Source of the DNA: Eledone cirrhosa
Lineage: Eukaryota
Reading direction: 5' to 3'
DNA length: 64,000 bases
Assembly (NCBI GenBank): GCA_964016885.1
Contig: OZ024751.1
Span: forward strand, 27,838,001 to 27,902,000
The notes below the pieces were generated by a model. The model saw nothing but the letters and a program-made list of their open reading frames with translations. It was not told the origin of the DNA and searched no databases. Positions 1,425-55,778 of the stretch are shown piece after piece. How positions within the stretch are numbered: the first letter of the stretch is position 1; every line of letters starts with the position of its first letter. The translations under genes were made by a program, and so were the position numbers.

Positions 1425-1654
1425 GAGATAGCTGTTAACCCTTTCTATACCAGACTGTTTGAAACCGTCTTTGGTGCTACAATGTAAAGCTGTTTATCTG
1501 CAAGAGTAGCTATATCAGCATGCCTCCCCCGCTATCCTCCAGGGCAACATATTTTTCAATAATGTCTGCTGAGTCCATGAGGTGGCATGTGTCTGGCATT
1601 CTGCACACCAGAAAGCGTTCTCCTATACCGTCTAAAAAAAGTCTAAAGTGTGTC

Positions 1655-1925
1655 TCGAGCCCGGAGGCTCATCACTCCAGTGATTATACCAGTTTCCATA
1701 GCATTAAGTGACTGAGAGTACAAGACTCTTCCCCTAGACAGGACGCCAGTCCATCATGGGGTTAAACTCCCAGCTACTGCTAGTACTTTTTTCATCTGAG
1801 TATACTGGAGCAACATGAAATAAAGTGTTTTGTTCAAGAACACAACACACAACTTAGTCCACAAATTGAATCGACAGGGTTATGATTGTAAGCCCAACAC
1901 ATTACTAAGCCACGCACCTCCACAC
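1655..1925 (-). mobile_element. tRNA-derived SINE with CORE-like domain
   Basis: Reverse strand: A-box-like tggcttagtaa, B-box-like tcgattcaattt, tgtgttcttgaacaaaacacttt core; same family as 48070-48310. Confidence 0.75.
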
Positions 1926-2196
1926 CTACACTGTCTTTGCTTGTATTATTGGGGTTAGCAATGTTGTAGGTTGCTGACATCTATCCACACACATGCAATA
2001 AAATTATCTACTGAATTCTTCAGTATGAAATATTTATAGTTATCCATAAACTTTTCATTTTATGTAAGACCCTTTAAGTTCCATTCTAAATTCTTCCAAA
2101 TTCTTGATTATTTTCTCAATTATTTGAAAATTATAGGTAGTGCCCTTAATTTTTTTTTTTTTTTTTCATAGTAATAAAAAGATTAAAGGGTATTAA

Positions 2197-2338
2197 TACA
2201 TATTGGTTGTGAGTTCTCTGACAGAATCAGTATTACATATTGGTTGTGAGTTCTCTGACAGAATCAGTATTACATATTGGTTGTGAGTTCTCTGACAGAA
2301 TCAGTATTACATATTGGTTGTGAGTTCTGTGACAGAAT
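2197..2338. repeat. 37-bp tandem repeat, about 4 copies
   Basis: tattggttgtgagttctctgacagaatcagtattaca recurs at 2201, 2238, 2275 and 2312. Confidence 0.92.
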
Positions 2339-2629
2339 TGTTAGTACATTGAACAAGATACCTAGCAGTAATTAGTTACAGCATTTTATGATCTTTGTTC
2401 AAATTCTATCAACATCAATTTTTGGCAGAACTGATGGAGTGTTGGACCAAAATCTTTATAGTATTTGTTCTGACACTTTATGGGCTGAGTTCAAATCATG
2501 GCAAGATCAACTTCACCTTTCACCCTTCCAAAGTAGATAAAATCAGTCAAGTATTGGGGTTGTTTTAATCAACTTTGCCCTGCATGCTTTTATTGACAAA
2601 ATGACCATCCCTGAGCATAACAATTCTGA

Positions 2630-2897
2630 TACTAATATACTGGAAAGGGTGGGTAGAAATTCTATGAGGTGTAGCCTGTGGGATCAGTGGATGTTTGAGG
2701 GATATAGTAGGATCACAGGTTGGCTAACAGAGAAGGTAAATGTCATGTCATATGTGACAGGTGCACATGAGTAGTCAGCAGTAAGGGCACTTGGGGAAAT
2801 GAACTTTCTCAAATGCTCAGAAGACTCATTAGAAGTAGTAGATAGCTTTTGCTATCTAGGGGATCTCATTAACAATGGAGGTGGTTGTATCGAAAGA
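2630..2897 (+). mobile_element. RTE LINE fragment (post-RT region), decayed
   Basis: Translates LEVVDSFCYLGDLINNGGGCIE, matching IEVVDSFRYLGDQISMGGG of the LINE at about 29860-29915. Confidence 0.7.
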
Positions 2898-5774
2898 GGA
2901 GAGAAGCAGAGATGGGGGAGGAGGGGGAAGGTGAGAAACTGATGGTAGGGGGTCATTGGAGGGAGATATGGAGTGGGGGGGGGGGTGTGCAGCAATTATC
3001 TAAGAATCTTCAAATCTCAACTAATTACCCAGCTTTTTTTTTTTATTGAATTGATTTAAGAAACAAAATTAACTGGTTTTAATTTTTTGTATAAGGAAAC
3101 AAAAAGAGTGAAAAAAAAAAATCAATATTTAGTGAACTGAAGCCAATATTTTATTAGAATTTCTTCTGTTGTCATAACAGCTAAGCTATCCAATTATTTA
3201 TTCTCCGGATATCTGAAGACAAAAGCAAAAAAAAAAAAATGTAATATAAAAATACACGAAAAAGAATTTTAAGAAAAATGTTAGGATTTGGCCTTGAAAT
3301 TTCAATTATTTGCTAGAAAGACAATTAATGAACTCTGTTATGTTTATTATTATTATTTTTTTTTATTTTTTAAAGAAACTAATTAAATGTTATTTTATAG
3401 TTGAGTAGAATGTTTTAGAGAACAGCTAAATATATGATGTTAAAACTGACCAATTCTTCAACATGACAGGTGGGATGGCATTTCATCTTCATTGCTTAAT
3501 TCTTTTGGGACAATATTTCTAAATGGAATACATTGTATTCCAATTTATTAATGAAGAATTTGGATGGTTCTACATAAAATTATTAACCCTTTCATTACTA
3601 TAGTTCTAATGAAAGACTGCTAATAATTTCAAATAAGTTTAGAAATAAAAAATCTGAAGGGCTTTTGTGATATTTACTTTCTCATTATTCAGCAGGTGTT
3701 TAGAACATAGCTTAACAAAGGTTCTTACATAAAATTATGATGCAATATTTCTAGATAAATATATACACTTTAACTCTATCATGACCATATTTCAGTTAAT
3801 TATTGAAGAATTTTGAGGGATTTACTAGAATTATTATTTCAGTACTAAATTAACTAAGACCACAGTTGAACATTCCTGACAAAATCTCTCCACAATTCAC
3901 GATTTTCTATTGCTCCTTACCAAGGTTTATATCATCTGAGAGATGATCAATGAAAATAGTAACTTAAAATATGGTTCTTATATTATATTGGAAAATTTTT
4001 TAAATTTAAATAGGAACCCTTTAAAATGGGTAATTTTGTTTCATCAAACTAGAACCGAGTTAGTATAAGAAAAGGCCAAAATAAATGGCTTTGTATCAAA
4101 GAAACAAGGATGACTTCAGGCAGTTTGATATCAAAAGGCTTAATATTCTCTGTAATGCTACTATTTTAAGAGTCTTTTAGTTCATGACAACATTCTTTTA
4201 ATGTAATCTTTTTTTTATTTAGTTTCATTTTAGATTTATTTTTATTTTTATTTTTTCCAGAATATATTTCACATGTGGTGTACATTACTAGAGGAATTAA
4301 ACAACGTAGCATTTCATCTTACTTGTAGTAAGTATTTAAAAAATACATTTTTTTTATTGATTTCATATCACTTGTAAGTGAAACATTACACATGATAAAA
4401 TCCTTCATTATTCACAGGTCTTCGTATAAGAAGGTGCGTGGCTTAGTGGGTAGGGAATTGAATTTTTATTTTGTGTGGTTGCGGGTTCGATACCCGGACT
4501 GGGGGGGGGGGGGGGGGGAGGGGGGGGTTTATGTCCTTGAGCAAGACACTTTATTTCACATTGCTCCTTCTGCCAGGAGTTGCGACAGGTAGATAGTATC
4601 AGCAATGGAAAGGTCAATAGAAACATTGTTTCCTTGGTCTAATTTGATGAGTTTCACCCCAATTGGTAACTAAATGAGGTCTGGGAACTTGTTGATGGAT
4701 GTGATAAATGATATAAGATCAATGAAGGTGATTGGCCTAGAGGTTAGGGTGTTGAACTTGTAATCATAAGGTCATGGGTTTGATTCCTGAACAAGGCAGA
4801 GCATCATGTTCTTGAGTAAAATGCGTCATTTCATGTTGCTTTTCATGATATGATTGGTGCCCTTATCATTAAAACACGAGAAACCTCCTATGAGGTAAAA
4901 ATTCATAGGAGGCCAGCTAAATCTGCATAGGTGTGAGCTGTAAATTTCATTTTTTTTTTTTTGGCGGGGGTTTTCTTTTATTCTATATAAGGTGACATTC
5001 ATCTGTAGAAACAGAACAAATATCACATGTTATAAGATATTGGGCTATATAATCTCAGAAATATTGTATATCTTTTTTTCTTTTACTGGTATCAGTCATT
5101 AGACTGTGGCCATGCTGGGGCAGCACCACCTTTATTGACTTACTATTTTTTTTCAAGCCTTATTTTATTGTCTTCTATTTGTGTCCTGTAAATTACTGGT
5201 TCAACAAACACAGGCACAGACATACACACACAACAGGTGCATACACACACAATGGAATTCTGCAGTTTCTGTCTACCAAATTCCACTCATATTACATTGA
5301 TCAATACAAAGTTTTAGTAAAAGACACTTGTCCAAGGTACCACACAGTGGGACTGAACTGGAAACCATGTGGTTGTGAAGCAGACTCCTTAACTACACAG
5401 CTACATCTGTACCTATTACACAAGTATCTTATCCAATGGAAGACTTGTCTTCTATTTAACAATGGTGTTTTGGTATCAAAACAGTTAGATACACCATGGT
5501 TCGATTAGTAATCTCTTGACCAGTCTTCAAGTGGATGCCTCTTGATTGCCAAACCATCTAAAACTGGTTCGATGATACAAAACTGCCTCTCTTATCATCA
5601 CCATCATTGTTGTTTTATGTCTGTTTTCCATGTTTGTATGGGTTAGATGGGCTGTCCCGTTCTGAGGCCAGACATGCCAGGTGGCTGTGTCTTGCCTATA
5701 CATTCCATTTTTGGCATGGTTTCTGTGGCTTGATGTCCTTCCCAATACCAACCATTTCACTGTGTGTACCGGGT

Positions 5775-6952
5775 GCATTTTATTGTGGCACCATCACTAC
5801 CACTTTACGGACTGGACTGTGTGCATTTTATTGTGGCACCATCACTACACTTTACGGACTGGACTGTGTGCATTTTATTGTGGCACCATCACTACACTTT
5901 ACGGACTGGACTGTGTGCATTTTATTGTGGCACCATCACTACACTTTACGGACTGGACTGTGTGCATTTTATTGTGGCACCATCACTACACTTTACGGAC
6001 TGGACTGTGTGCATTTTATTGTGGCACCATCACTACACTTTACGGACTGGACTGTGTGCATTTTATTGTGGCACCATCACTACACTTTACGGACTGGACT
6101 GTGTGCATTTTATTGTGGCACCATCACTACCACTTTACGGACTGGACTGTGTGCATTTTATTGTAACACCATCACTACACTTTACGAACTGGACTGTGTG
6201 CATTTTATTGTGGCACCATCACTACACTTTACGGACTGGACTGTGTGCATTTTATTGTGGCACCATCACTACACTTTACGGACTGGACTGTGTGCATTTT
6301 ATTGTGGCACCATCACTACACTTTACGGACTGGACTGTGTGCATTTTATTGTGGCACCATCACTACACTTTACGGACTGGACTGTGTGCATTTTATTGTG
6401 GCACCATCACTACACTTTACGGACTGGACTGTGTGCATTTTATTGTGGCACCATCACTACACTTTACGGACTGGACTGTGTGCAACGGACTGGACTGTGT
6501 GCATTTTATTGTAACACCATCACTACACTTTACGGACTGGACTGTGTGCATTTTATTGTAACACCATCACTACCACTTTACGGACTGGACTGTGTGCATT
6601 TTATTGTGGCACCAGCACTACACTTTACGGACTGGACTGTGTGCATTTTATTGTAACACCATCACTACCACTTTACGGACTGGACTGTGTGCATTTTATT
6701 GTGGCACCAGCACTACCACTTTACGAACTGGACTGTGTGCATTTTATTGTGGCACCAGCACTACCACTTTACGAACTGGACTGTGTGCATTTTATTGTGG
6801 CACCAGCACTACCACTTTACGGACTGGACTGTGTGCATTTTATTGTGGCACCATCACTACCACTTTACAGAGTGGGCTGTGTGCTTTTATTGTGGCACCA
6901 GCACTACCACTTTAGAGTTCATTGAGTGTATTTTATTGTGGCACCAGCACTA
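5775..6952 (-). repeat. 47/48-bp minisatellite (about 25 copies) derived from an RTE-5'UTR/SINE module
   Basis: Unit ttgtggcaccatcactacactttacggactggactgtgtgcatttta; preceded (5590-5775) by the reverse complement of the usual ggttgg..aggaagggcatc..gatgatg repeat end. Confidence 0.93.
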
Positions 6953-9475
6953 CGATTTTCGATATTAGGCCACTCGTGACCTTGGCCTAGCTGATGAGGC
7001 AGAGAAAGAAGTGGGTGGTATCTGAAAACTTTCCATCATAATTTTACATTTTACCTTCATGTCACCAGCTTGATAAGAAAGTTGGTTATTTTACTAAATC
7101 TCTTAAAATAATTTCAAAATTAAGAGATCATAGGTAATGTATTTCATTAGAAATATAAGAAAATAGTTACCTTATATACTCATATATAAACCGAGAAATA
7201 TGTGACTAAAATAAAATCGATGGTGAAATAGGGGGTTGGCCTGTATTTCAGGTCAATATTTTGCCTATTTTTGCCAGCTTCAAATTGAGATGCTAAAATA
7301 CTTTTGCTTTGGAGGTGAATATCACACTGCTTCCATTTTCGACATGAAATTCTTTTTTCCTGTTGTTTTTGATGCATTTTGAATGAATATGATCTTCAAA
7401 ATGGTCACAAATTAAAAAAAAAAACAAAACAAATTATTATGTAATGGAGTTCTGAAATAACATTTAAAACTTCACAAATATATTCTCATATGCAACATAT
7501 TTTCTTAGAAATTTGGTAACAAAAACATTAAATCATTTCAGAAAGAAACGGAAAAAATTTTTTTTTTTTCCCAGTTAATAAGATATTTAGATTATTACCA
7601 CTTAACATGTTTTTACTTGAATATTAATGTGGAAGAGATAATATTGATATGACGATATGAAGTATTGAGATGAAATTCCTTGGAGGAAAACCAGAAATAA
7701 CTTCCAGAAATAACCCAGCTTAAATTCTCTTAAATATGTCTGACTACGACTATAACTTGTAATATTCATTTGAAAACAAAACACACAAAAAAATCAACAA
7801 CATTTATATACAAGAGGCCTTGAAAAGCTGGCAGTATTATTTGTAGAATAACCACCTCTATAAGAGAAAGCTTTTATAAAATCTTTTATAGATATATATA
7901 TGTTTTTGTTTTCATAGCTAATTGCAATGTGCCTTTAAATAGATTTATTTTCTTTTCATCTCCACTATGAAAGTAAATACAAATTATTGATTTTTTTTTT
8001 TAACAAACTTTCTTTTACATTTTGTGTGTATTTCATTTTATTTTTATCTTAATTAGATTTTACTTTTCTTTAAAACAAACATTTTAATTAATGTTATTTC
8101 CATTCCAATAAGAAATGGTGCAGTAAGTGTATGGTATGGAGATAGGTATAATGGTTTTTACAGAGCAGAATAGAATAAGAATGCACTTAAAAAGAATGAC
8201 TAGAATTACTATAATCAAATTTTTATCCAAAAGAACACAAACAAGAGGTGGTAATATGATGTTAAGTAAAAGATAACAAAGAGTTTGGTAATATAATTCA
8301 GAGCTTTATCAATAACATATAACATTACTTGTGCTGCTGCTGGATATGTTTTTTCTTACAAGGAATAACAAAAAAAAAAAAAATGGTATTTGTATAAAAA
8401 TATTTATTATCTCGCTTAACCATTTTGTTATCACCATCACCATCACCATTGTCTAGCATTCATTTCCCCTGCTAGTAAAGGTTGAACCTGTTGTCACAAA
8501 CTGGTCAGTATTCAATCAGGGCCTCTAACCTCCAAGTGGGCTGGAGGCTCGGCATATGCTCCCATGCTCTACCTAGTGTATTTTATTGTGGTACCAACAC
8601 TAGGGAAGTTGTCATGTCCTTGACACAGCTGAAGAGTCCTTCAGACCTTTTGTTTGGCAGATGTTATATAGCTGGATGCCCTTCTCCCACCAGCAATTAC
8701 TTTACAAAGTAAAAGATGTTGCCTATGATTTTAAAATAATTTCAAAATTAACCAAGAATCTGGAAGAATTTAATAATATAACTAACTTTCTCATTATTAA
8801 GCTGGTGTTTTGAACATAACAAGGGTTCATATATCAAATTATGATGGAAGGTTTTTAGATAAATATAAGCATTTAAAACAAGCAGTTTTGTATCATAGAA
8901 ACCAGCAGGAAGTTTCAAGTAGTTTGATTATATAAATCCTGTTGAAGTCAACGAAGTTGATCTTTCTTCTCTCTTGCTATATTTATACCCCACTCTCTCT
9001 CTGGAAGAAATCAACTGGGGTTAAACCTTGAGAGGGATAGCTGCTACCAAGTTTTATAATGCCCAAGCCTTGTCAGTGAAATTAGGTAGGCAGAAACTGT
9101 GTGGAAGCCCATCAAATGGATTGTACCTGGAATTCAAAGGTCCAGCCATGCCACATATTGTGACATGCTGATTCAACTTAGGAATTATGTTAAGGTTTCA
9201 TGTGCCTGGAATACTCAACCACTTAGATATTAATTCATGAGGTGGATGTACAGTTGAATTAACAACTGGATATTCTTTGTAGAAAGTGAGGGAGTGTGTG
9301 TGAGAGAGAGAGTGTGTGTGTGTGTGCGCGAGGAAGAGAGTGTGTTTGAGGATGAGAGAGGAAGATTGAAGGTGTGTGTATGAGGAAGAGCGAGAGTGTG
9401 TATCAGAGAGAGGGAAAGGGAGAGAGAGAGAGAGATCCTTTGTTGCTAACAGTGCTGATAACTTTCACATTTTTT

Positions 9476-10600
9476 TACTGCAATATTACACCACCTCTCT
9501 ACACTACACTTTCTCACTACAATAGTATAGGTAGTTTTCTCCATGCCACCATCTAAACAGGTTCTACTGTAATATCACTTCATCATCTATACTTTCTCAC
9601 TACAATAGTATAGGTAGTTTTCTCCATGCCACCACCTAAACAGGTTCTACTGTAATATCACTTCATCATCTACACTTTCTCACTACAATAGTATAGGTAG
9701 TTTTCTCCATGCCACCATCTAAACAGGTTCTACTGTAATATCACTTCATCATCTATACTTTCTCACTACAATAGTATAGGTAGTTTTCTCCATGCCACCA
9801 TCTAAACAGGTTCTACTGTAATATCACTTCATCATCTATACTTTCTCACTACAATAGTATAGGTAGTTTTCTCCATGCCACCATCTAAACAGGTTCTACT
9901 GAAATATCACTTCATCTTCTATACTTTCTCACTATAACATAACTATAGTTCTCTCCATGTCACCATCTAAATACTGTAATATCACCTCATCTTCTATACT
10001 TTTTCACTATGATAATATAGCTACAGTTCTCTCCATGTCACCATCTAAATACTGTAATATCATCTCATCTATACTTTCTTACTATGATAACATAGCTACA
10101 GTTCTCTCCATGTCACCATCTAAATACTGTAATATCACCTCATCTTCTATACTTTCTTACTATGATAACATAGCTACAGTTCTCTCCATGTCACCATCTA
10201 AATACTGTAATATCACCTCATCTTCTATACTTTCTCACTATGATAATATAGCTACAGTTCTCTCCATGTCACCATCTAAATACTGTAATATCACCTCATC
10301 TTCTATACTTTCTCACTATGATAATATAGCTACAGTTCTCTCCATGTCACCATCTAAATACTGTAATATCACCTCATCTTCTATACTTTCTCACTATGAT
10401 AACATAGCTACAGTTCTCTCCATGTCACCATCTAAATACTGTAATATCACCTCATCATCTATACTTTCTCACTATGATAATATAGCTACAGTTCTCTCCA
10501 TGTCACCATCTAAATACTTTCCACTGTAATATCACTTCATCTCTTATATTATAGTTTCTCACTACAATAGCATAGCTACAGTTCTATCCATGTCACCTAA
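9476..10600. repeat. Two-phase minisatellite: about 5.5 x 83 bp, then about 8 x 78 bp
   Basis: ttctcac recurs 9511->9594 (83 bp); caccatctaaatactg recurs 9961->10039 (78 bp, giving the 26-aa repeat ORF). Confidence 0.92.
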
Positions 10601-15872: not shown

Positions 15873-16090
15873 AGGTGTTAAGACAAAAAGCACCCAGTCC
15901 ACACTGTAAAATGGTTGTGTTGGTGACACAACAAAAAGCATCCAGTCCACACTATAAAGTGGTCGTATTGGTGACACAACAAAAAGCACCCAGTCCACAC
16001 TGTAAATGAGGTTGGCATTAGGAAGGGCATCCAGCTGTAGAAGCCAGGCCAAAATCAGTTCTGTATGTGCAAGACATGGTCACCTGGTGA
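15873..16090 (+). mobile_element. RTE-related non-autonomous repeat with 3 tandem pseudoknot-like modules
   Basis: Three ggtg..acaaaaagcacccagtccacactgtaaa units followed by ggttggcattaggaagggcatccagctgtagaa. Confidence 0.7.
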
Positions 16091-16407
16091 TAATTGTGTG
16101 AATAGAAAGTTTATGAAGCATGTGGGAGATTGGAATTTGTAATTGTGTGTCTTTCTATAGAACAAAGAACCATGCTGCGTGAATAGTAACTATAAAATAA
16201 TTGTGAATAAATAGAGTATATAACTCCTTGAGGTAGAAAATATATATGGCATTATGCAGTAATAGAGAAGACCCGCCTTCCCGTGTGCACGGGTTGAAGC
16301 ATATATCTAGAATGCACAACTTTCACGACCCACGCTCTAACACCTCATCCACATTCCTAGATTTACCTCTCCAATCCCACACGCATCTCTCCGTCCCATG
16401 TCTCCAG

Positions 16408-17030
16408 CCCACACTGTAAAGTCACAACAACTGTAAAGTGGCAGTGTAGGTGCCATGACAAAAAGCGCCCAGCTTACACTATAAAGTGGTCATGTAGGTG
16501 TCACAACAAAAAGCACCCAGTGCACACTGTAAAGTGGTCATGTAGGTGTCACAACAAAAAGCACCCAGTGCACACTGTAAAGTGGTCATGTAGGTGTCAC
16601 AACAAAAAGCACCCAGTGCACACTGTAAAGTGGTCATGTAGGTGTCACAACAAAAAGCACCCAGTGCACACTGTAAAGTGGTCATGTAGGTGTCACAGCA
16701 AAAAGTACCCAGCGTACACTGTAAAGTGGTCATGTAGGTGTCACAACAAAAAGCACCCAGTGCACACTGTAAAGTGGTCATGTAGGTGTCACAGCAAAAA
16801 GTACCCAGCGTACACTGTAAAGTGGTCGTGTAGGTGTCATGACAAAAAGCACCCAGTGCACACTGTTAATGTGGTTGTCCTTTTGAAGGGCATCCAACTA
16901 TAGAACCCACCCATGCCAGAATCAGTTCCGTATGAGCAAGACACAGTCACCTGATCTGACTTGTTTCACAACGGGACAACTTGTCTAACCCATGCTAGTG
17001 TGGAAAAATGGACGTTAAATGATGATGATG
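16408..17030 (+). repeat. 48-bp minisatellite (about 9-10 copies) inside an RTE-related repeat ending in (ATG)n
   Basis: Unit tcacaacaaaaagcacccagtgcacactgtaaagtggtcatgtaggtg (16501->16549); ends ggacgttaaatgatgatgatg at about 17030. Confidence 0.9.
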
Positions 17031-25909: not shown

Positions 25910-26562
25910 GTGTACACAATATACATATACAGATTGTGCCATGTACATATACAGATGACACAATTTAGCAGAATTGAGATGTCAATTGAATCATGTTACA
26001 AACTATTTTATATTATTTTTAAAAACCTATAATTAATATAGCATAGTTTATTTTATGATTTTTAATATCATATAAATCAACTTAGTTATTATATTTATTG
26101 ATCTACTTATCTCGATAGATTTATAAAAAAAAATGAATACTTTGATGTCATTCTATTTCTGTAATTTTATTTCTACATCATGTTCTTGCAATTAAACCAT
26201 TCAATATTAGTGTGATATGATCTATGTAAATATATTTATTTAAATTCACTTTATTTTTAGTATTTTTTTTTCACTGCCATCATGTATTTTTCTACTAAAT
26301 ATGTATATATCGATATATCAATTGAATACTTACTCCAGAAATCTGTCGAGTGCTTTGAATCAGTTGTAAACAAATTTAATATCTCTTCAAATTTAATATC
26401 TCTTCTATATATATATATATATATATACATATATATATGTAGGAGGTGAGTTTTATTGTAGTACAATAAAGCAATGCAGATATCGGATAAGAAGCACTCT
26501 ACAGTTTGTGGGACTGGAGTATGCATAATATAAGATCAAAAGATGGTTAAAGGAGTTCAATA

Positions 26563-26631
26563 TATTTTATTATGCGCATTTCAAAAACAAACATCATCAA
26601 ACAATAATATTTGTGTTTTCATCAGATAAAA
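26563..26631 (-). ncRNA. Type I hammerhead ribozyme motif (family A), left palindrome arm
   Basis: Exact reverse complement of 26756-26824 (tcatcag at 26619-26625). Confidence 0.75.
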
Positions 26632-26755
26632 CAGGAGAACATGATATGAAGGCTAAAAAAACACTTGTTGATAGTGCAGTTTTAAATCAACATATGTTGA
26701 TTTAAAACTGCACTATCAACAAGTGTTTTTTTAGCCTTCATATCATGTTCTCCTG

Positions 26756-26824
26756 TTTTATCTGATGAAAACACAAATATTATTGTTTGATGATGTTTGT
26801 TTTTGAAATGCGCATAATAAAATA
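26756..26824 (+). ncRNA. Type I hammerhead ribozyme motif (family A)
   Basis: ttttat-CTGATGA(26762)-stem II acaaatattatt/gatgatgtttgt-GAAA(26805) T GCGC A TA(26816)-ataaaa; palindromic stem III ATGCGCAT; predicted cleavage after 26816. Confidence 0.75.
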
Positions 26825-31220: not shown

Positions 31221-31275
<55 letters not shown>

Positions 31276-31304
31276 GTTATGTAATAAAGATCATAAGATA
31301 ATTA

Positions 31305-31364
31305 TTTCATTTACCAGTGGTTTCTTGAAAGCAAACAAATCTGCTTTCAGTCGTCAGAATGAAA
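31305..31364 (-). ncRNA. Type I hammerhead ribozyme motif (family B)
   Basis: Reverse strand tttcatt-CTGACGA-c tgaaagcaga tttg tttgctttca a-GAAAC cactg GTA-aatgaaa. Confidence 0.78.
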
Positions 31365-31634
31365 AAATCCTGGTGTTTTTATTGAATGTGGATTTGAAAA
31401 TAAAAATATAAGAAATATGAAAGTGAGGTTCGGGGAAGAAGAAAAAAAATTATAAATATATAAGTATATAAACACACACACACACATATACATATGTATA
31501 TATATAAACATACATACACAAACACACACATATATATATATATATAAATATTTGCTCTACGGTTCTTATATATTTGATATATATTTATCCTTTTCGAGCC
31601 CTCTTTGGATTTTAGTCTTCAAATTTATTATTAT

Positions 31635-31683
<49 letters not shown>

Positions 31684-31818
31684 AAAGTTAAACAAGGTTC
31701 AATGAATACATCAAAGAATGAGTTTTACAATAGATTGGAAGCACTCAACAAGAGGGTTTTCCAGACTTATTCATATTAATTCTAAATATTAACAAAATAG
31801 ATATTCTTGTATCAAGTA

Positions 31819-31884
31819 TATTTTATTATACATATTTCAGAGGTACTGAGTTAAGTTCAACAGTACGTCCTCATCAGATAAAAC
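31819..31884 (-). ncRNA. Type I hammerhead ribozyme motif (family A)
   Basis: Reverse strand ttttat-CTGATGA-ggacgtactg..cagtacctct-GAAA tatgta TA-ataaaa; in an element spanning about 31681-31950 between (TA)n tracts. Confidence 0.78.
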
Positions 31885-32011
31885 AAGATGATGCATGACA
31901 TCCTGACATGGTAGATGGTTAAGATTCAGTCATGGTAGTTTGAATTAATATTATATATATATATATATACAATATATTAACAAATGGAAACTATATTTAT
32001 AAAACCATATT

Positions 32012-32058
32012 TATTTTATTATACATATTTCAAAGGCCACCTTTCATCAGATAAAATA
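32012..32058 (-). ncRNA. Type I hammerhead ribozyme motif (family A, short stem II)
   Basis: Reverse strand tattttat-CTGATGA-aaggtggccttt-GAAA tatgta TA-ataaaata. Confidence 0.75.
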
Positions 32059-32119
32059 CAATACAGATTTGTTTTATAAATAAATATTGACATACCCTGA
32101 AAAAAGACAATCTGTATTG

Positions 32120-32185
32120 TATTTTATCTGATGAAAGTGCACCATAATTTACCTTGGTAGCCCTTGAAATATGTATAATATAATA
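32120..32185 (+). ncRNA. Type I hammerhead ribozyme motif (family A)
   Basis: tattttat-CTGATGA(32128)-aagtgcacca..tggtagccctt-GAAA(32166) tatgta TA(32177)-atataata. Confidence 0.72.
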
Positions 32186-32989
32186 AATATGGTTTTATAA
32201 ATATAGTTTCTATTTGTTAATATATTGTATATTTACTCCACTAAGCTGTTGAGTGCTTTATATCAGTTATAAAAATGTTTAAGCTTGTTGAATCCCAACA
32301 AATTAAATATAACCTCTGCATATATATAAAATATACACACACATACATACATATATATACACATACACAATTATAAAAATAAACAAACATATACACACTC
32401 ACCATGCGCATATACTAAAATAAGCAGTTACATCAACTGGCCAAGATAAATCAGTAAAAAATAAAGTCAAATATAAAAATAAAAAATTAGCAAGTTGACA
32501 GCGATACGAAAGAAGAAAAAAAACACAAATAAAAATAAACAAACAAACCCACGTGGTCAGCAAATGCACAAAATAAAATAAATTTTGTGCATTTGCTGAC
32601 CACGTGTGTTTGTTTATTTATTTTTATTTGTGTTTTTTTTCTTCTTTCGTATCGCTGTCAACTTGCTAATTTTTTATTTTTATATTTGACTTTATTTTTT
32701 ACTGATTTATCTTGGCCAGTTGATGTAACTGCTTATTTTGGTATATGCGCATGGTGAGTGTGTATATGTTTGTTTATTTTTATAATTGTGTGTATATATA
32801 TGTATGTATGTGTGTGTGTTTGTGTATGTATGTATGTTTATATATATACATATGTATATGTGTGTGTGTGTGTGTGTGTGTTTATATACTTATATATTTA
32901 TAATTTTTTTCCTTCTTCCCTGAACCTCACTTTCATATTTCTTATATTTTTGTTTTCAAATCGACATTCAATAAAAACACCAGGATTTT

Positions 32990-33049
32990 TTTCATTCTGA
33001 CGACTGAAAGCAGATATGTTTGCTTTCAAGAAACCGCTGGTAAATGAAA
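32990..33049 (+). ncRNA. Type I hammerhead ribozyme motif (family B)
   Basis: tttcatt-CTGACGA(32997)-10-bp stem II tgaaagcaga/tttgctttca-GAAAC(33030) cgctg GTA(33040-42)-aatgaaa; 7-bp stem I, 3-bp stem III. Confidence 0.8.
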
Positions 33050-33143
33050 TAATTATCTTCTGTTGTTTATTACATAACTAATAAGCTCTGTAACCTACAT
33101 AGAGCACTCTTTTTTCCTGGACCTTTCCGACGGAATTACTTCA

Positions 33144-33145
<2 letters not shown>

Positions 33146-33192
<47 letters not shown>

Positions 33193-33502
33193 ATGTATAT
33201 GTGTGTGTGTGTGTGTATGTGTGTGTGTGTGTATGTATATGTGTGTGTGTATGTGTGTATGTATGTATGTGTGTGTGTATATATATGTATGTATATATAT
33301 ATAATGTGTGTATATATGTATGTATATATATATAATGTGTGTATATATATGTGTGTGTGTGTATATATATGTGTGTGTATGTATGTGTATATATATATGT
33401 GTATGTATGTGTATATATATATGTGTGTGTGTGTATATATATATGTGTGTGTGTATATGTGTGTGTGTGTGTATATATATATGTGTATATGTGTATATGT
33501 GT

Positions 33503-33577
<75 letters not shown>
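33146..33577. repeat. (TA)n/(TG)n compound microsatellite
   Basis: Directly visible. Confidence 0.97.
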
Positions 33578-33579
<2 letters not shown>

Positions 33580-34189
33580 TAGTATCTCTGCCTGTCATAT
33601 GAGCTAACTAAAAGGATTGGTACCAGGAAAGGCATCTGGCTGTAAAACCTGTGCCAGCACAGAAAAGTGGGCATGATGACAATGACTGTTATGTCTTAGC
33701 AATCATGCGGAGTGTTCTTTGTTGGCTTGACATGTAGGAGGTGTTGTGTGTGTGTGCTTTTGTGTTGATAGTTTATCTGAGAAAAGATAGCAATTGTTTA
33801 GTGATTGAGTTATTGATAGACTGGAAGTAGTGTTAGATAATATATATATATATAGATAATAAATACACACACACATATATATTATACATATCATTTACAC
33901 ACACACACACACACACACTCATTGGTACTGTTGTTGATATGCGAGACTCTATACTTTTCCTGCCTCCCTATCATAACAGAATAGATAACAATCTAGATAA
34001 GTTACTTAGTACAAAGCCAAACAGTTGGAAGTTGTCATATTTTTGATAATTTATCATGGCTGATAGTGAGTGCCTAGTATGTGCACAAGTGTTGTGAGTG
34101 AATATAATACATCCTGAGGACACAGCTTGAACCAATGGTTAAGACGTTCTAGGCTCCCAGGTTCGATCTTACTGTGTGGCATCTTGCTG

Positions 34190-44985: not shown

Positions 44986-46377
44986 TGTAGGCATATGGCT
45001 TAGTGGTTAGAGCATTGGCCTTGCAATCTAAAGGTTGTGAGTTCAATTCTCGGACCGGGTGATGTGTTGTTTCCTTGAGCAAGAGACTTTATTTCACATT
45101 GTTCCAGTTTACTCAGCTGTAGAAATGAGATGATAGGGAATGAGGTCCCTATCATTCCACTGCTGTGGTTACCCCGATTGAACCCGAGATACACACACAC
45201 GCGCAAACTTCCCCTCTCTTTCTGCTGTCTGTTATGTGTGTGCACACATACACACACGTATATGTATATATAATTTTTTTTCTTTTCTATTTTCTTTTAA
45301 TGCAGCCATTTTTGTATCTGTCTGATACCATGCCTGGTGAACGTGAAATTCCACGAGAACGGAATGAATAAAAGGTAATTATATATACTAGCAGAAAAAC
45401 CACCCTAAGGGTGGTTTTCTGCTAGCATGTGTAGTGTGCATATTGATATTATATGCAAGTATATGATATATCAAATAAAATTGTAATTGACAATATACAC
45501 AGAAATTGAACAAAGACTGCGTTACACTCTCTTATGTAATCAGTAACGTAATCTATGATATATTAGAAAAAGACGATATTATATATAAACTGCATTAGGA
45601 GAAAATTAGTGACGGAAATATATAAATGTTTATTTAAGCGATAGCTAACTGGAAGTGTTGACATTTGAAAATTTTAAAGAAGTGAATCTTTAAATAAGGA
45701 ATAAAATATATTTAATCAACAGTTACGAAATTTAGTAGATACATTATGTAATGTTCATTCATTATCTATTCAAAGTTTTCCAACTCATTTTACTAACTGG
45801 ATTAAAAGAAATAAAACTGTACGCAGTCCCGCACTCCTTACTTTGTTATAGTCTAGATGTGTGTGTGCGTGTATATATGTATATGTATGTGTGCATATAT
45901 ATATAAAATACAATATGTTGAAAAGGTAACTCACTAGAGAGATATAGTGTGCCATCAATAAAGCAGGGAAAACCACCAGTGTATGGAATCTATAATCTAT
46001 GGCAGGCAGGGTAGACACACAATAATTAAAAATATAAATTAAAATGTATATATGCAACTCTATAACTATATAACACACGCATACAAATCCAAAGAGATCT
46101 GTTTCACCAGGAAGTTGTTGATAGTCTTGCATGCACTGATGAACCATAGGCTATTCCATTTCAGTCAACAATATATATATATTTTGTTTCTGAATTTGTT
46201 TAGCAAGATTCTTTATCTGAAAACGTGTGTTGAAACCGATATTGTTATACTTTGGGAGGGTCATGTTGCCAACACACACCAGTTGCTTTCACTCCAATTT
46301 ATTATAAATTAAATTTATAAATTTATAAATTTCCGGTTGGTTGGTTGGTTCCACAACTGGACGGTTGTTCATATATT

Positions 46378-54752: not shown

Positions 54753-54832
54753 GTTGTATGTATTGTAGGCATATGATGTAGTTTATATATATATATATAT
54801 AAACTACATCATATGCCTACAATACATACAAC
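54753..54832. repeat. 80-bp perfect palindrome centred on (TA)n
   Basis: gttgtatgtattgtaggcatatgatgtagtt(ta)n aactacatcatatgcctacaatacatacaac. Confidence 0.93.
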
Positions 54833-54901
54833 TATCCAGGAAAAACTTGAACCGTGAAGATCTTCTTCCTGGCTATGTCAATATTTATAAAACAAACTTT
54901 G

Positions 54902-54964
54902 TATTTTATCTGATGAGAGTGTACCAAAGTGTTGGTACCCTTGAAATATATATATAATAGAATA
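54902..54964 (+). ncRNA. Type I hammerhead ribozyme motif (family A), sense to the BICRA intron
   Basis: tattttat-CTGATGA(54910)-gagtgtaccaa agtg ttggtaccctt-GAAA(54943) tatatata TA(54956)-atagaata. Confidence 0.75.
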
Positions 54965-55007
54965 AATATGGTTTTATAAATATAGTTTCCATTTATTTAA
55001 TATGATT

Positions 55008-55040
<33 letters not shown>

Positions 55041-55139
55041 ATGTGTATGTGTAGCTCAAGATTAAAAAAGGAATATATAAATGTGTGTAAGTGTATATAT
55101 GTATATGTGTGTGTACATATATGTATGTTTGTGTGAATG

Positions 55140-55269
55140 TGTTTAATATAGAAATGACTTCTACAGGACTAGAACTGTTTCTTTCGAAGGAAATCATCGG
55201 GAAAGCCCCTGATGATTTCCAACGAATGAAACAATTCTAGTCCTGTAGAAGGCATTTCTATATTAAACA
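55140..55269. ncRNA. Inverted pair of hammerhead-like motifs (family C)
   Basis: + CTGATGA(55209) tttccaacgaat GAAAC aattcta GTC; - CCGATGA tttc cttc gaaa GAAAC agttcta GTC; ~60-bp arms; stem I unclear. Confidence 0.45.
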
Positions 55270-55464
55270 TTTATACTCTATTATGTAGTTTCCCCTGATT
55301 GAACTTGGTATATATTATATATATATATATATATGCAAAAGTTCTATTTAAATTGTTGGGATACAACAAGCAAATATTTTTATAACTGATATAAAGCACT
55401 CAACAAGTATTTGGAGTAAACATACGATATTAACAAATGGAAACTATATTTATAAAACCATATT

Positions 55465-55529
55465 TATTTCATTATACATATTTCAAGGACACCAAGTTAA
55501 ATTATGGTGTGCTTTCATCAGACAAAATA
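55465..55529 (-). ncRNA. Type I hammerhead ribozyme motif (family A)
   Basis: Reverse strand tattttgt-CTGATGA-aagcacacca..tggtgtcctt-GAAA tatgta TA-atgaaata; element spans about 55335-55620 between (TA)n tracts. Confidence 0.75.
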
Positions 55530-55778
55530 TAATATAGATCAGTTTTATAAATAAATATTGACATACCCTTAAAAAATGCAACCATTACTGTTGGAAGCTC
55601 CCGGATAGTGGAGTTGTTTATATATATATAGTCTGTATTTCACACCACAAATACATACTCATATATCTACACAAAGCTTGATATAATATATGAATTTTAT
55701 AAGTGATTACAAACCAAGATGATGGTAATTAATATTTGGTTTCTGTTCTTTCGATTGTTGGCGTTGCCACTGTTACAG

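What the first reader, a model, noticed from the sequence alone, without database searches (positions are those of the whole stretch)
31273..33080. Russian-doll nest: a ~1-kb family B palindrome invaded by family A elements, five hammerheads in 1.8 kb
Seen: the left arm is split at its internal CA/TA microsatellite (about 31530 to 32331) by a short unknown insert (31550-31637), a single-hammerhead element (31681-31950) and an inverted double-hammerhead element (31965-32320), each bounded by (TA)n. The outer arms differ by scattered substitutions, so this is not a read artefact. Inference: these elements carry their own microsatellite targets, creating self-reinforcing hotspots, and family B here predates family A.
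Basis: partly seen in the sequence, partly recalled or inferred. Interest (0 to 1): 0.72.

Follow-up and report, generated by a model that had tools for sequence, protein, structure and literature searches.

The report
Penelope retroelement ends nested in microsatellite
This stretch is a real nest in which cut-short tail ends of three Penelope-type jumping-gene families sit inside the left arm of a mirror-image copy of a fourth, likely because all four insert into TA repeats and the fourth carries such a repeat inside itself; it is an ordinary footprint of a known kind of retrotransposon.

Summary
The nest is real. Window 31273-31527 plus 32335-32578 is one arm, 96% identical to the inverted right arm (18 mismatches in 495 columns), and both arms share rare variants. 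Five hammerhead-like motifs are present; Rfam finds none. The pieces are not small 'family A/B' elements. They are 5'-truncated 3' ends of four abundant families (B, A1, A2, and C, the 'unknown insert'). Longer genomic copies of each run into a GIY-YIG-type frame with Hydra-clade Penelope motifs. The palindromes are the published Penelope pattern: an inverted 5' copy lacking a fixed 3' tail, seen in 52 of 114 sampled copies. B normally carries (TA)n at the split site (12 of 14 copies). One older nested stub has been copied along with B: 21 of 24 copies with its junction lie in B sequence. 'Self-reinforcing hotspot' is only weakly supported (about 2.4-fold, p 0.04-0.05, fading after controls). 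B-before-A holds here by structure only, since divergence clocks overlap. The scan reported the same kind of thing on other DNA of this genome. Verdict: new members of a known kind, low interest.

The parts
31223..31272 (.). (TA)25 left flank, target repeat of the B insertion
31273..31530 (-). Family B inverted (tail-less) arm, 3' part; starts 65 nt from the family 3' end (family mode 66)
31305..31364 (-). Hammerhead-like motif 1 (B left): core CUGACGA, helix III ACCACUGGU, predicted cleavage after 31312
31531..31546 (.). (TA)8, left remnant of B's internal (TA)n; the family normally has such a run here, the right arm does not
31544..31637 (+). Family C tail-only insertion (the 'unknown insert'); no hammerhead; 0 of 88 differences from the family majority; likely youngest
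31638..31681 (.). (TA)21 shared by the 3' ends of C and A1 (tail to tail)
31682..31939 (-). Family A1 3' end, 5'-truncated at about 258 nt
31820..31884 (-). Hammerhead-like motif 2 (A1), predicted cleavage after 31827
31940..31951 (+). 12-nt stub of A1's own inverted arm (same start letters as inverted arms in other A1 copies)
31952..31969 (.). (TA)9 between A1 and A2
31970..32109 (-). Family A2 inverted tail-less arm; starts 85 nt from the family 3' end; the apparent 44-nt loop is this arm's extra 5' reach
32013..32057 (-). Hammerhead-like motif 3 (A2 inverted arm) with a 19-nt deletion in helix II; folds no better than shuffles
32110..32320 (+). Family A2 main arm with its 85-nt tail
32121..32184 (+). 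Hammerhead-like motif 4 (A2 main arm), one mismatch in helix I
32335..32583 (-). Family B inverted arm, 5' part; reaches about 9 nt further 5' than the main arm; 2-nt AT overlap at the junction
32582..33146 (+). Family B main arm: last 565 nt of a 3' untranslated region more than 2 kb long
32990..33049 (+). Hammerhead-like motif 5 (B right), predicted cleavage after 33042
33082..33146 (+).
33147..33581 (.). (AT)14, (TG)n and (TA)n right flank

Best explanation
The stretch holds the cut-short 3' ends of four repeat families whose longer copies encode a Penelope-type enzyme, likely laid down by four separate insertions into TA repeats, the last three into a TA run inside the first. Shown: (1) each family has a fixed 3' end followed by a microsatellite and variable 5' truncation; (2) longer copies of each run into a C-terminal GIY-YIG-type frame with Hydra-clade cysteine motifs; (3) 52 of 114 sampled copies have an inverted 5' arm that starts at a fixed internal point 66, 92, 85 or 86 nt from the end; (4) B normally has (TA)n at the split site. 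Inferred mechanism, following in-vitro work on another Penelope clade: the enzyme cuts both strands of the self-complementary (TA)n. One strand primes reverse transcription at the RNA's outer start and the other at the inner start, and the two cDNAs stop early and join head to head, leaving a palindrome with a one-sided tail. B did this first. A1 and A2 then inserted into the (TA)n of B's left arm, probably soon after, and C last, as a bare tail. The hammerhead motifs are passengers of the 3' ends and are predicted to be inert here: same-family pairs lie on opposite strands, so they cannot form the dimer that such motifs need from one transcript.
For: Fixed 3' ends and microsatellite flank: 110 of 114 tail-selected copies (sequences). 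Colinear link from endonuclease end to the window's 3' ends: B in L310, L312, L121; A1 in L124; A2 in L125, L311; C in L122, L123. CxCX5C, YIG/YVG and CxxC-E motifs are present for B, A2 and C; CxCX5C and CxxC-E for A1, whose YIG site is broken in the one long copy examined. RT motif LY[RH]DD lies upstream in L123, L124, L311, L138. Inverted tail-less arms: B 14 of 29, A1 15 of 29, A2 14 of 28, C 9 of 28, after dropping 30 automatic calls by hand. Arm ends are coupled: within 10 nt in 15 of 52 against 8.9 expected, p 0.008. Both B arms share variants that are rare in the family, on both sides of the inserts. Literature: inverted 5' copy, one-sided tail and (TA)n bias in PMC8557442; both-strand cutting and two RT starts bracketing the tail in PMC11167929.
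Against: Pfam gives only RVT_1 at E 0.08, below its cut-off, for 1 of 5 fragments and no GIY-YIG hit. The Hydra RWK and DKT motifs were not found in the fragments fetched, and no tree was built. Tails are 65-92 nt against 30-40 nt in print. The right arm lacks the family's (TA)n, so it has lost sequence at exactly this site. No read spans the nest. Divergence does not order B, A1 and A2.
Confidence: 0.87

Rival explanations
1. Self-reinforcing hotspot: element-borne and insertion-regenerated TA runs attract further insertions faster than ordinary TA runs, so nests grow preferentially. This is compatible with the best explanation and adds a rate claim.
For: About 2.4-fold more A1/A2/C pieces near B (9 in 94 kb against 16 in 400 kb, p 0.036). 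Same-run neighbours 7 of 110 against 30 of 1088 (p 0.046). A fossil nest frozen in B's UTR. By my rough arithmetic, uniform targeting would give only a few A1+A2+C triple stacks in the genome.
Against: Per TA run the excess shrinks to 5.3% against 3.5% (my arithmetic, densities). One of the 9 is the frozen passenger. Only 4 of 110 same-run neighbours are of a different family (3.6% against 2.8%). Around A2 loci other families are not enriched (3 in 93 kb against 12 in 400 kb). TA runs occur at about 1.15 per kb everywhere, so element-borne targets are a small share.
Confidence: 0.35
2. The palindromes form by self-priming (fold-back) of one strand, as proposed for rotifer Penelope elements, or by later loss of the centre of a longer palindrome, rather than by two target-primed cDNAs.
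For: Excess of near-symmetric junctions (10 of 52 within 5 nt against 5.8 expected, p 0.03). B's arms meet within about 9 nt after about 500 nt. PMC3846280 reads junction palindromes as self-priming.
Against: Fold-back alone does not explain why the inverted arm starts at one fixed point per family, which matches the second RT start shown in PMC11167929. By my count of the rows, the tail-less arm reaches more than 5 nt further 5' in 33 of 52 and less far in 9, which simple fold-back of the tail-bearing strand does not predict. Independent lengths from an inner start would give such a skew too.
Confidence: 0.25
3. The inserts were already inside the source B element, were copied as passengers, and the right arm later deleted them by slippage between flanking CA/TG repeats.
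For: The right arm has lost the family's (TA)n at this site. A passenger of this kind exists elsewhere in B.
Against: No sibling composite appears among the best 40 scored candidates of the C, A1 and A2 searches; the next full-length A2-junction match is 90% and the next A1 match 96%. These searches score only 40 of hundreds to thousands of candidates.
Confidence: 0.05
4. The pieces are non-autonomous retrozymes or foldback/MITE DNA elements of fixed small size.
For: Short, non-coding in the window, hammerhead-bearing, palindromic.
Against: Variable 5' ends, one-sided tail, colinear continuation into coding sequence for all four families; no head-to-tail monomer array.
Confidence: 0.03

Closest known systems
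Hydra clade of Penelope-like elements (Craig et al. 2021, PMC8557442; passages, section 11 and supplement rows read), including Hydra-1_Obim of Octopus bimaculoides, 2507 bp, (TA)n preference
   Same: RT followed by a C-terminal GIY-YIG, CxCX5C linker, CxxC and CxH around E and N, 3' hammerhead, (TA)n target, inverted 5'-truncated copy, one-sided tail.
   Different: Tails 65-92 nt rather than 30-40; B's 3' UTR alone exceeds 2 kb and is full of microsatellites; at least four families with, roughly, tens of thousands of fragments each (2-8 per 400 kb). Sequences were not compared with Hydra-1_Obim.
Poseidon element of Anolis carolinensis in vitro (Frangieh et al. 2024, PMC11167929; parts 1-2 of 4 read)
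   Same: Two RT start sites bracketing the tail, cutting and extension of both strands of AT-rich DNA; hammerhead not needed for insertion.
   Different: Different clade; start in an AC-rich stem-loop there. The paper parts I read do not explain inverted arms or the coupling of their lengths.
Hammerheads of metazoan Penelope-like elements (Cervera and de la Pena 2014, PMC4209133; parts 1-2 of 4 read)
   Same: Type I, long helix II, short palindromic helix III, mostly in truncated copies, pairs 100-700 bp apart on opposite strands, low activity and only as dimers.
   Different: The conserved G10.1-C11.1 pair does not directly close helix II in these motifs.
Penelope elements of Adineta vaga (Arkhipova et al. 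2013, PMC3846280; passages read)
   Same: A Penelope inserted into another Penelope (Pen2a into Pen3), inverted pLTR, tail, junction palindromes.
   Different: Low copy number; no microsatellite nest in the passages read.
Animal non-LTR retrozymes (bioRxiv 10.64898/2026.07.22.740005; part 1 of 5 read)
   Same: Type I hammerhead, related to Penelope pLTRs.
   Different: Retrozymes are non-coding tandem arrays; these are truncated ends of coding elements.

Membership tests
Penelope-like elements (EN+) | Single ORF with RT followed by a GIY-YIG endonuclease | tested here: met
   Broken but ordered RT (LY[RH]DD) and EN motifs in L123 (C), L124 (A1), L311 (A2), L138 (B); Pfam support weak
Penelope-like elements (EN+) | 5' truncation with an inverted 5' copy | tested here: met
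   52 of 114 tail-selected copies after hand filtering
Penelope-like elements (EN+) | One-sided tail | tested here: met
   Modal inner start 66 (7 of 14), 92 (12 of 15), 85 (11 of 14), 86 (6 of 9) nt from the end; longer than the published 30-40 nt
Penelope-like elements (EN+) | Partial tandems (pLTR) | tested here: inconclusive
   A few copies run on past the 3' end into shared family-specific sequence (L031; L002/L017; L096/L117/L276); the link to an ORF start was not traced
Hydra clade | CxCX5C linker | tested here: met
   All four families
Hydra clade | CxxC and CxH flanking the conserved E and N | tested here: met
   B, A1, C in full; A2 has CxxC-E and CxH with an altered stretch between
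Hydra clade | RWK and DKT motifs in the N-terminal part | tested here: inconclusive
   Not found in 16 loci scanned, whose ORFs are 5'-truncated or broken
Hydra clade | CCHH motif absent from the endonuclease | not tested
   No alignment to canonical Penelope endonucleases was made
Hydra clade | Insertion into (TA)n | tested here: met
   Microsatellite at the 3' end in 110 of 114 copies, the count allowing CA as well as TA; B often ends in (CA)n then (TA)n
Hydra clade | Hammerhead near the 3' end | tested here: met
   B, A1, A2 by descriptor. Family C shows a variant core, CAGAAGA, upstream of its tail, outside this window
Hydra clade | Placement in the RT phylogeny | not tested
   No reference sequences were fetched; membership rests on motifs
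Type I hammerhead ribozyme | CUGANGA/GAAA/UH core with three helices | tested here: met
   5 of 5 with a relaxed descriptor, 3 of 5 strict; both B motifs fold as such at minimum free energy, the others do not fully; Rfam negative
Type I hammerhead ribozyme | G10.1-C11.1 pair (highly conserved, not invariant) | tested here: not met
   Helix II begins and ends C/A (B), G/U (A1), A/U (A2)
Type I hammerhead ribozyme | Self-cleavage | not testable with these tools
   Needs an in-vitro assay
Non-LTR retrozyme | Non-coding tandem monomers, each with a hammerhead | tested here: not met
   No tandem array here; families continue into coding sequence
MITE / foldback DNA transposon | Fixed length with inverted repeats at both termini (definition recalled) | tested here: not met
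   Variable 5' extent and one-sided tail

The most novel reading that the evidence does not exclude
These families give a genomic read-out of how Penelope palindromes form and grow. Both arms would be copied from one RNA at two fixed starts (arm ends are coupled, p 0.008). Nests in an element's own UTR microsatellite can be frozen and amplified with the host element: an A-type stub with its own mini fold-back rides in a B lineage, and 21 of 24 junction-bearing copies lie in B sequence. Retroelement UTRs would thus grow by capturing relatives' tails, perhaps gaining extra priming sites.
Probability: 0.35. Interest if true: 0.5.

Novelty: new member of a known kind. Interest (0 to 1): 0.24.

Why it matters
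The nest itself is ordinary: a known retrotransposon class, known target bias, known inverted structure, and nesting of one Penelope in another is already in print (PMC3846280). Its use is statistical. PMC8557442 names tandem/inverted structure formation and microsatellite bias as open mechanistic questions, and a genome with tens of thousands of fairly young copies lets arm coupling, start sites and target re-use be measured directly. It also warns that such short palindromes are easily mis-annotated as MITEs, retrozymes or unknown repeats.

Tried and rejected
Rfam: no hammerhead at gathering score. Pfam: nothing above cut-off for five fragments. Reads: eight runs were laid. Seven are short-read contigs and one is 150-nt RAD reads; none spans the nest, repeat-derived records swamp the signal, and the joints seen come from other family copies, so neither the assembly nor intermediate alleles could be tested. 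Three runs of one sample do cover unique flanks without differences, but they may be the assembly's own source. Target-site duplication: a possible ACACACAC(AT) repeat at the split was set aside because the family has CA-TA-CA repeats there anyway. The automatic inverted-arm caller gave 82 calls in 114 copies; I dropped 30 (B 9, A1 9, A2 3, C 9) that were microsatellite matches or started far from the family mode, and it missed some short or long real arms. The window's own copies, one duplicate and one reference locus were excluded. The skew towards longer inverted arms was rejected as evidence for a leading/trailing model, since independent lengths give it too. All genomic samples are the best-scoring 30 of 40 scored candidates and are biased towards copies like the window's. 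The background is 40 stretches of 10 kb at round coordinates that I chose. Paper searches returned no listing that describes this nest or a hotspot test for Penelope elements; in the Octopus vulgaris repeat paper (PMC13282606, passages) 'hammerhead' and 'nested' do not occur. Supplements of the bioRxiv preprint were not seen and could list related families. Outputs were cut in the middle.

Full report
Setting. The window is G000:C11:27838001-27902000 of a 3.0-Gb animal genome, AT-rich and full of microsatellites. That it is an octopus is an untested inference, also made by earlier notes.

Observation. The left pieces 31273-31527 and 32335-32578 align to consecutive parts of the inverted right arm, 33081-32818 and 32817-32578, with 18 mismatches in 495 columns. 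Against 27 other copies, both arms share three variants in the outer part (two found in 1 of 27 copies, one in 6 of 27). Against 9 copies they share two rare ones in the inner part (0 and 1 of 9). The arms therefore come from one source, including the part beyond the inserts. Five hammerhead-like motifs are present (3 by a strict descriptor; 5 by a descriptor relaxed afterwards, with 1 hit in 2000 shuffles); Rfam reports none.

What the pieces are. Genome searches gave 2831, 370, 1952 and 3100 first-look candidates for B, the 'unknown insert' (family C), the single-hammerhead element (A1) and the double one (A2). In 400 kb of background I counted 4, 6, 2 and 8 pieces. Every family has a fixed 3' end followed by a microsatellite (110 of 114 tail-selected copies) and a variable 5' end. 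Walking upstream reaches coding sequence in all four, colinear with the window's ends. The frames show RT motif LY[RH]DD, a CxCX5C linker, YIG/YVG (broken in the one long A1 copy), and CxxC-E-N-CxH. Craig et al. 2021 give these cysteine motifs, a 3' hammerhead and (TA)n insertion for the Hydra clade of Penelope-like elements and list an Octopus bimaculoides member. Against this, Pfam is nearly silent, RWK and DKT were not found in my truncated fragments, and no tree was built.

The palindromes. They are not the unit of family B. Among copies selected by the tail alone, an inverted 5' arm is present in B 14 of 29, A1 15 of 29, A2 14 of 28 and C 9 of 28, after 30 automatic calls were dropped by hand. 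It starts at a fixed distance from the 3' end: modes 66, 92, 85, 86 nt. In the window, B's right arm carries a 65-nt tail (33082-33146) that the left arm lacks, A2 an 85-nt tail, A1 has a 12-nt stub of its own inverted arm, and C is a bare tail. This is the published pattern. Frangieh et al. 2024 showed for a Poseidon element that the enzyme cuts and extends both strands of AT-rich DNA and starts at two sites that bracket the tail. I infer two target-primed cDNAs joined head to head. The 5' ends of the two arms are coupled: within 5, 10 and 20 nt in 10, 15 and 23 of 52 pairs against 5.8, 8.9 and 14.6 by permutation (p 0.03, 0.008, 0.002). This suggests one shared template or a fold-back step, and I cannot separate the two. 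Arkhipova et al. 2013 favour self-priming.

The nest. Twelve of 14 other B copies that reach the split site have (TA)>=5 there, and the right arm has none. So the target was B's own run, and the right arm has lost its copy. By structure B came first. By divergence, B (3.6% between arms), A2 (4 substitutions in about 105 columns) and A1 (6 of 252 from the majority) cannot be ordered; C (0 of 88) is probably last, though 88 bases give little power. There is no family-level order: an A-type stub with its own small fold-back sits at one place in the 3' UTR of 13 of 25 long B loci (two of them arms of one insertion) and is absent from L310, where the empty (TA)n is visible. Of 24 genomic hits with its junction, 21 have B UTR sequence beside them, against 1 of 6 without the junction. 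That is direct evidence that B's internal TA runs are invaded and that a nest can be amplified with its host.

Hotspot claim. The enrichment is small and fragile: 9 in 94 kb against 16 in 400 kb (p 0.036), with TA runs 1.6 times denser around B, and 7 of 110 against 30 of 1088 on the same run (p 0.046), 3 of them same-family. TA runs occur about once per kb genome-wide. A triple stack is still rarer than uniform targeting predicts by my rough arithmetic, so some clustering is likely; its cause is not shown.

Hammerheads. They match the Penelope type of Cervera and de la Pena 2014, who also saw pairs on opposite strands 100-700 bp apart in truncated copies, and found no monomer activity and low dimer activity for the motif tested. 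Here same-family pairs lie on opposite strands, one has lost 19 nt of helix II, none has G10.1-C11.1 directly closing helix II, and folding z-scores are weak (-1.9 to +0.3). They are predicted to be inert at this locus.

Earlier notes. After forming this reading I looked up the scan's notes: several reports on other DNA of this genome reach the same class. They are unchecked and not independent support. One lead from them, a short motif pair just past both start points, I checked in part. A GCTC...GAGC pair follows the inner start in B and C and is predicted to pair. It also follows the outer end in tandem copies of C and A2. The ACTC...GAGT version in A1 and A2 did not appear in the predicted folds.

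Verdict. Observation confirmed; interpretation partly supported. New members of a known kind; interest 0.24.

Noticed in passing
L313-L342; L312:3279-3418; empty site in L310: A roughly 140-nt A-type tail with a mini fold-back is frozen in the 3' UTR of a B lineage and amplified with it; its parent family exists separately (L332, L342). Several copies stop right after the stub (for example L314, the inverted arm of L313), as if its end served as an extra start.
   Followed up: partly
L036, L040, L047 and others, about 90-160 nt upstream of family C's 3' end: Family C carries a hammerhead-like motif with core CAGAAGA instead of CUGANGA and a longer helix III, conserved across copies; it is absent from this window.
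   Followed up: no
window 26564-26823: Another inverted pair of hammerhead-like motifs from a different family (helix III AUGCGCAU), beside an A2-like fragment at 26321-26379 and a TA run.
   Followed up: no
window 54831-55613: Two older A2-like pieces on opposite strands, each with a hammerhead-like motif (54903-54963 +, 55528-55466 -).
   Followed up: no
window 44996-45053: Weak Rfam tRNA match (29.4 bits) after a long TA-rich array, probably the head of a tRNA-derived SINE; similar heads appear in L015, L030 and L046.
   Followed up: no
L125 (G000:C4:249354900-249363500): A large A2 palindrome whose inverted arm holds the endonuclease end and is 99.8% identical to the main arm over 486 nt, so probably a recent insertion.
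   Followed up: partly
L124, about 7680-7900 (L069 upstream UTR): Family A1's own 3' UTR appears to contain an internal inverted repeat (seen by eye in the alignment), inherited by all long copies.
   Followed up: no
L088:96-917: A 274-aa Penelope-type RT end plus GIY-YIG frame with a CxxxxCxxC linker, more like Neptune than Hydra (label recalled), near an A1 copy but probably unrelated to it.
   Followed up: no
L121, about 1480-3250: A 1.7-kb foreign insertion in B's UTR flanked by a duplication of about 40 nt.
   Followed up: no
window 5773-6953, 9565-10597, 15883-16875: Minisatellite arrays of 47, 78 and 48 nt; the 47- and 48-mers look related and lie on opposite strands.
   Followed up: no
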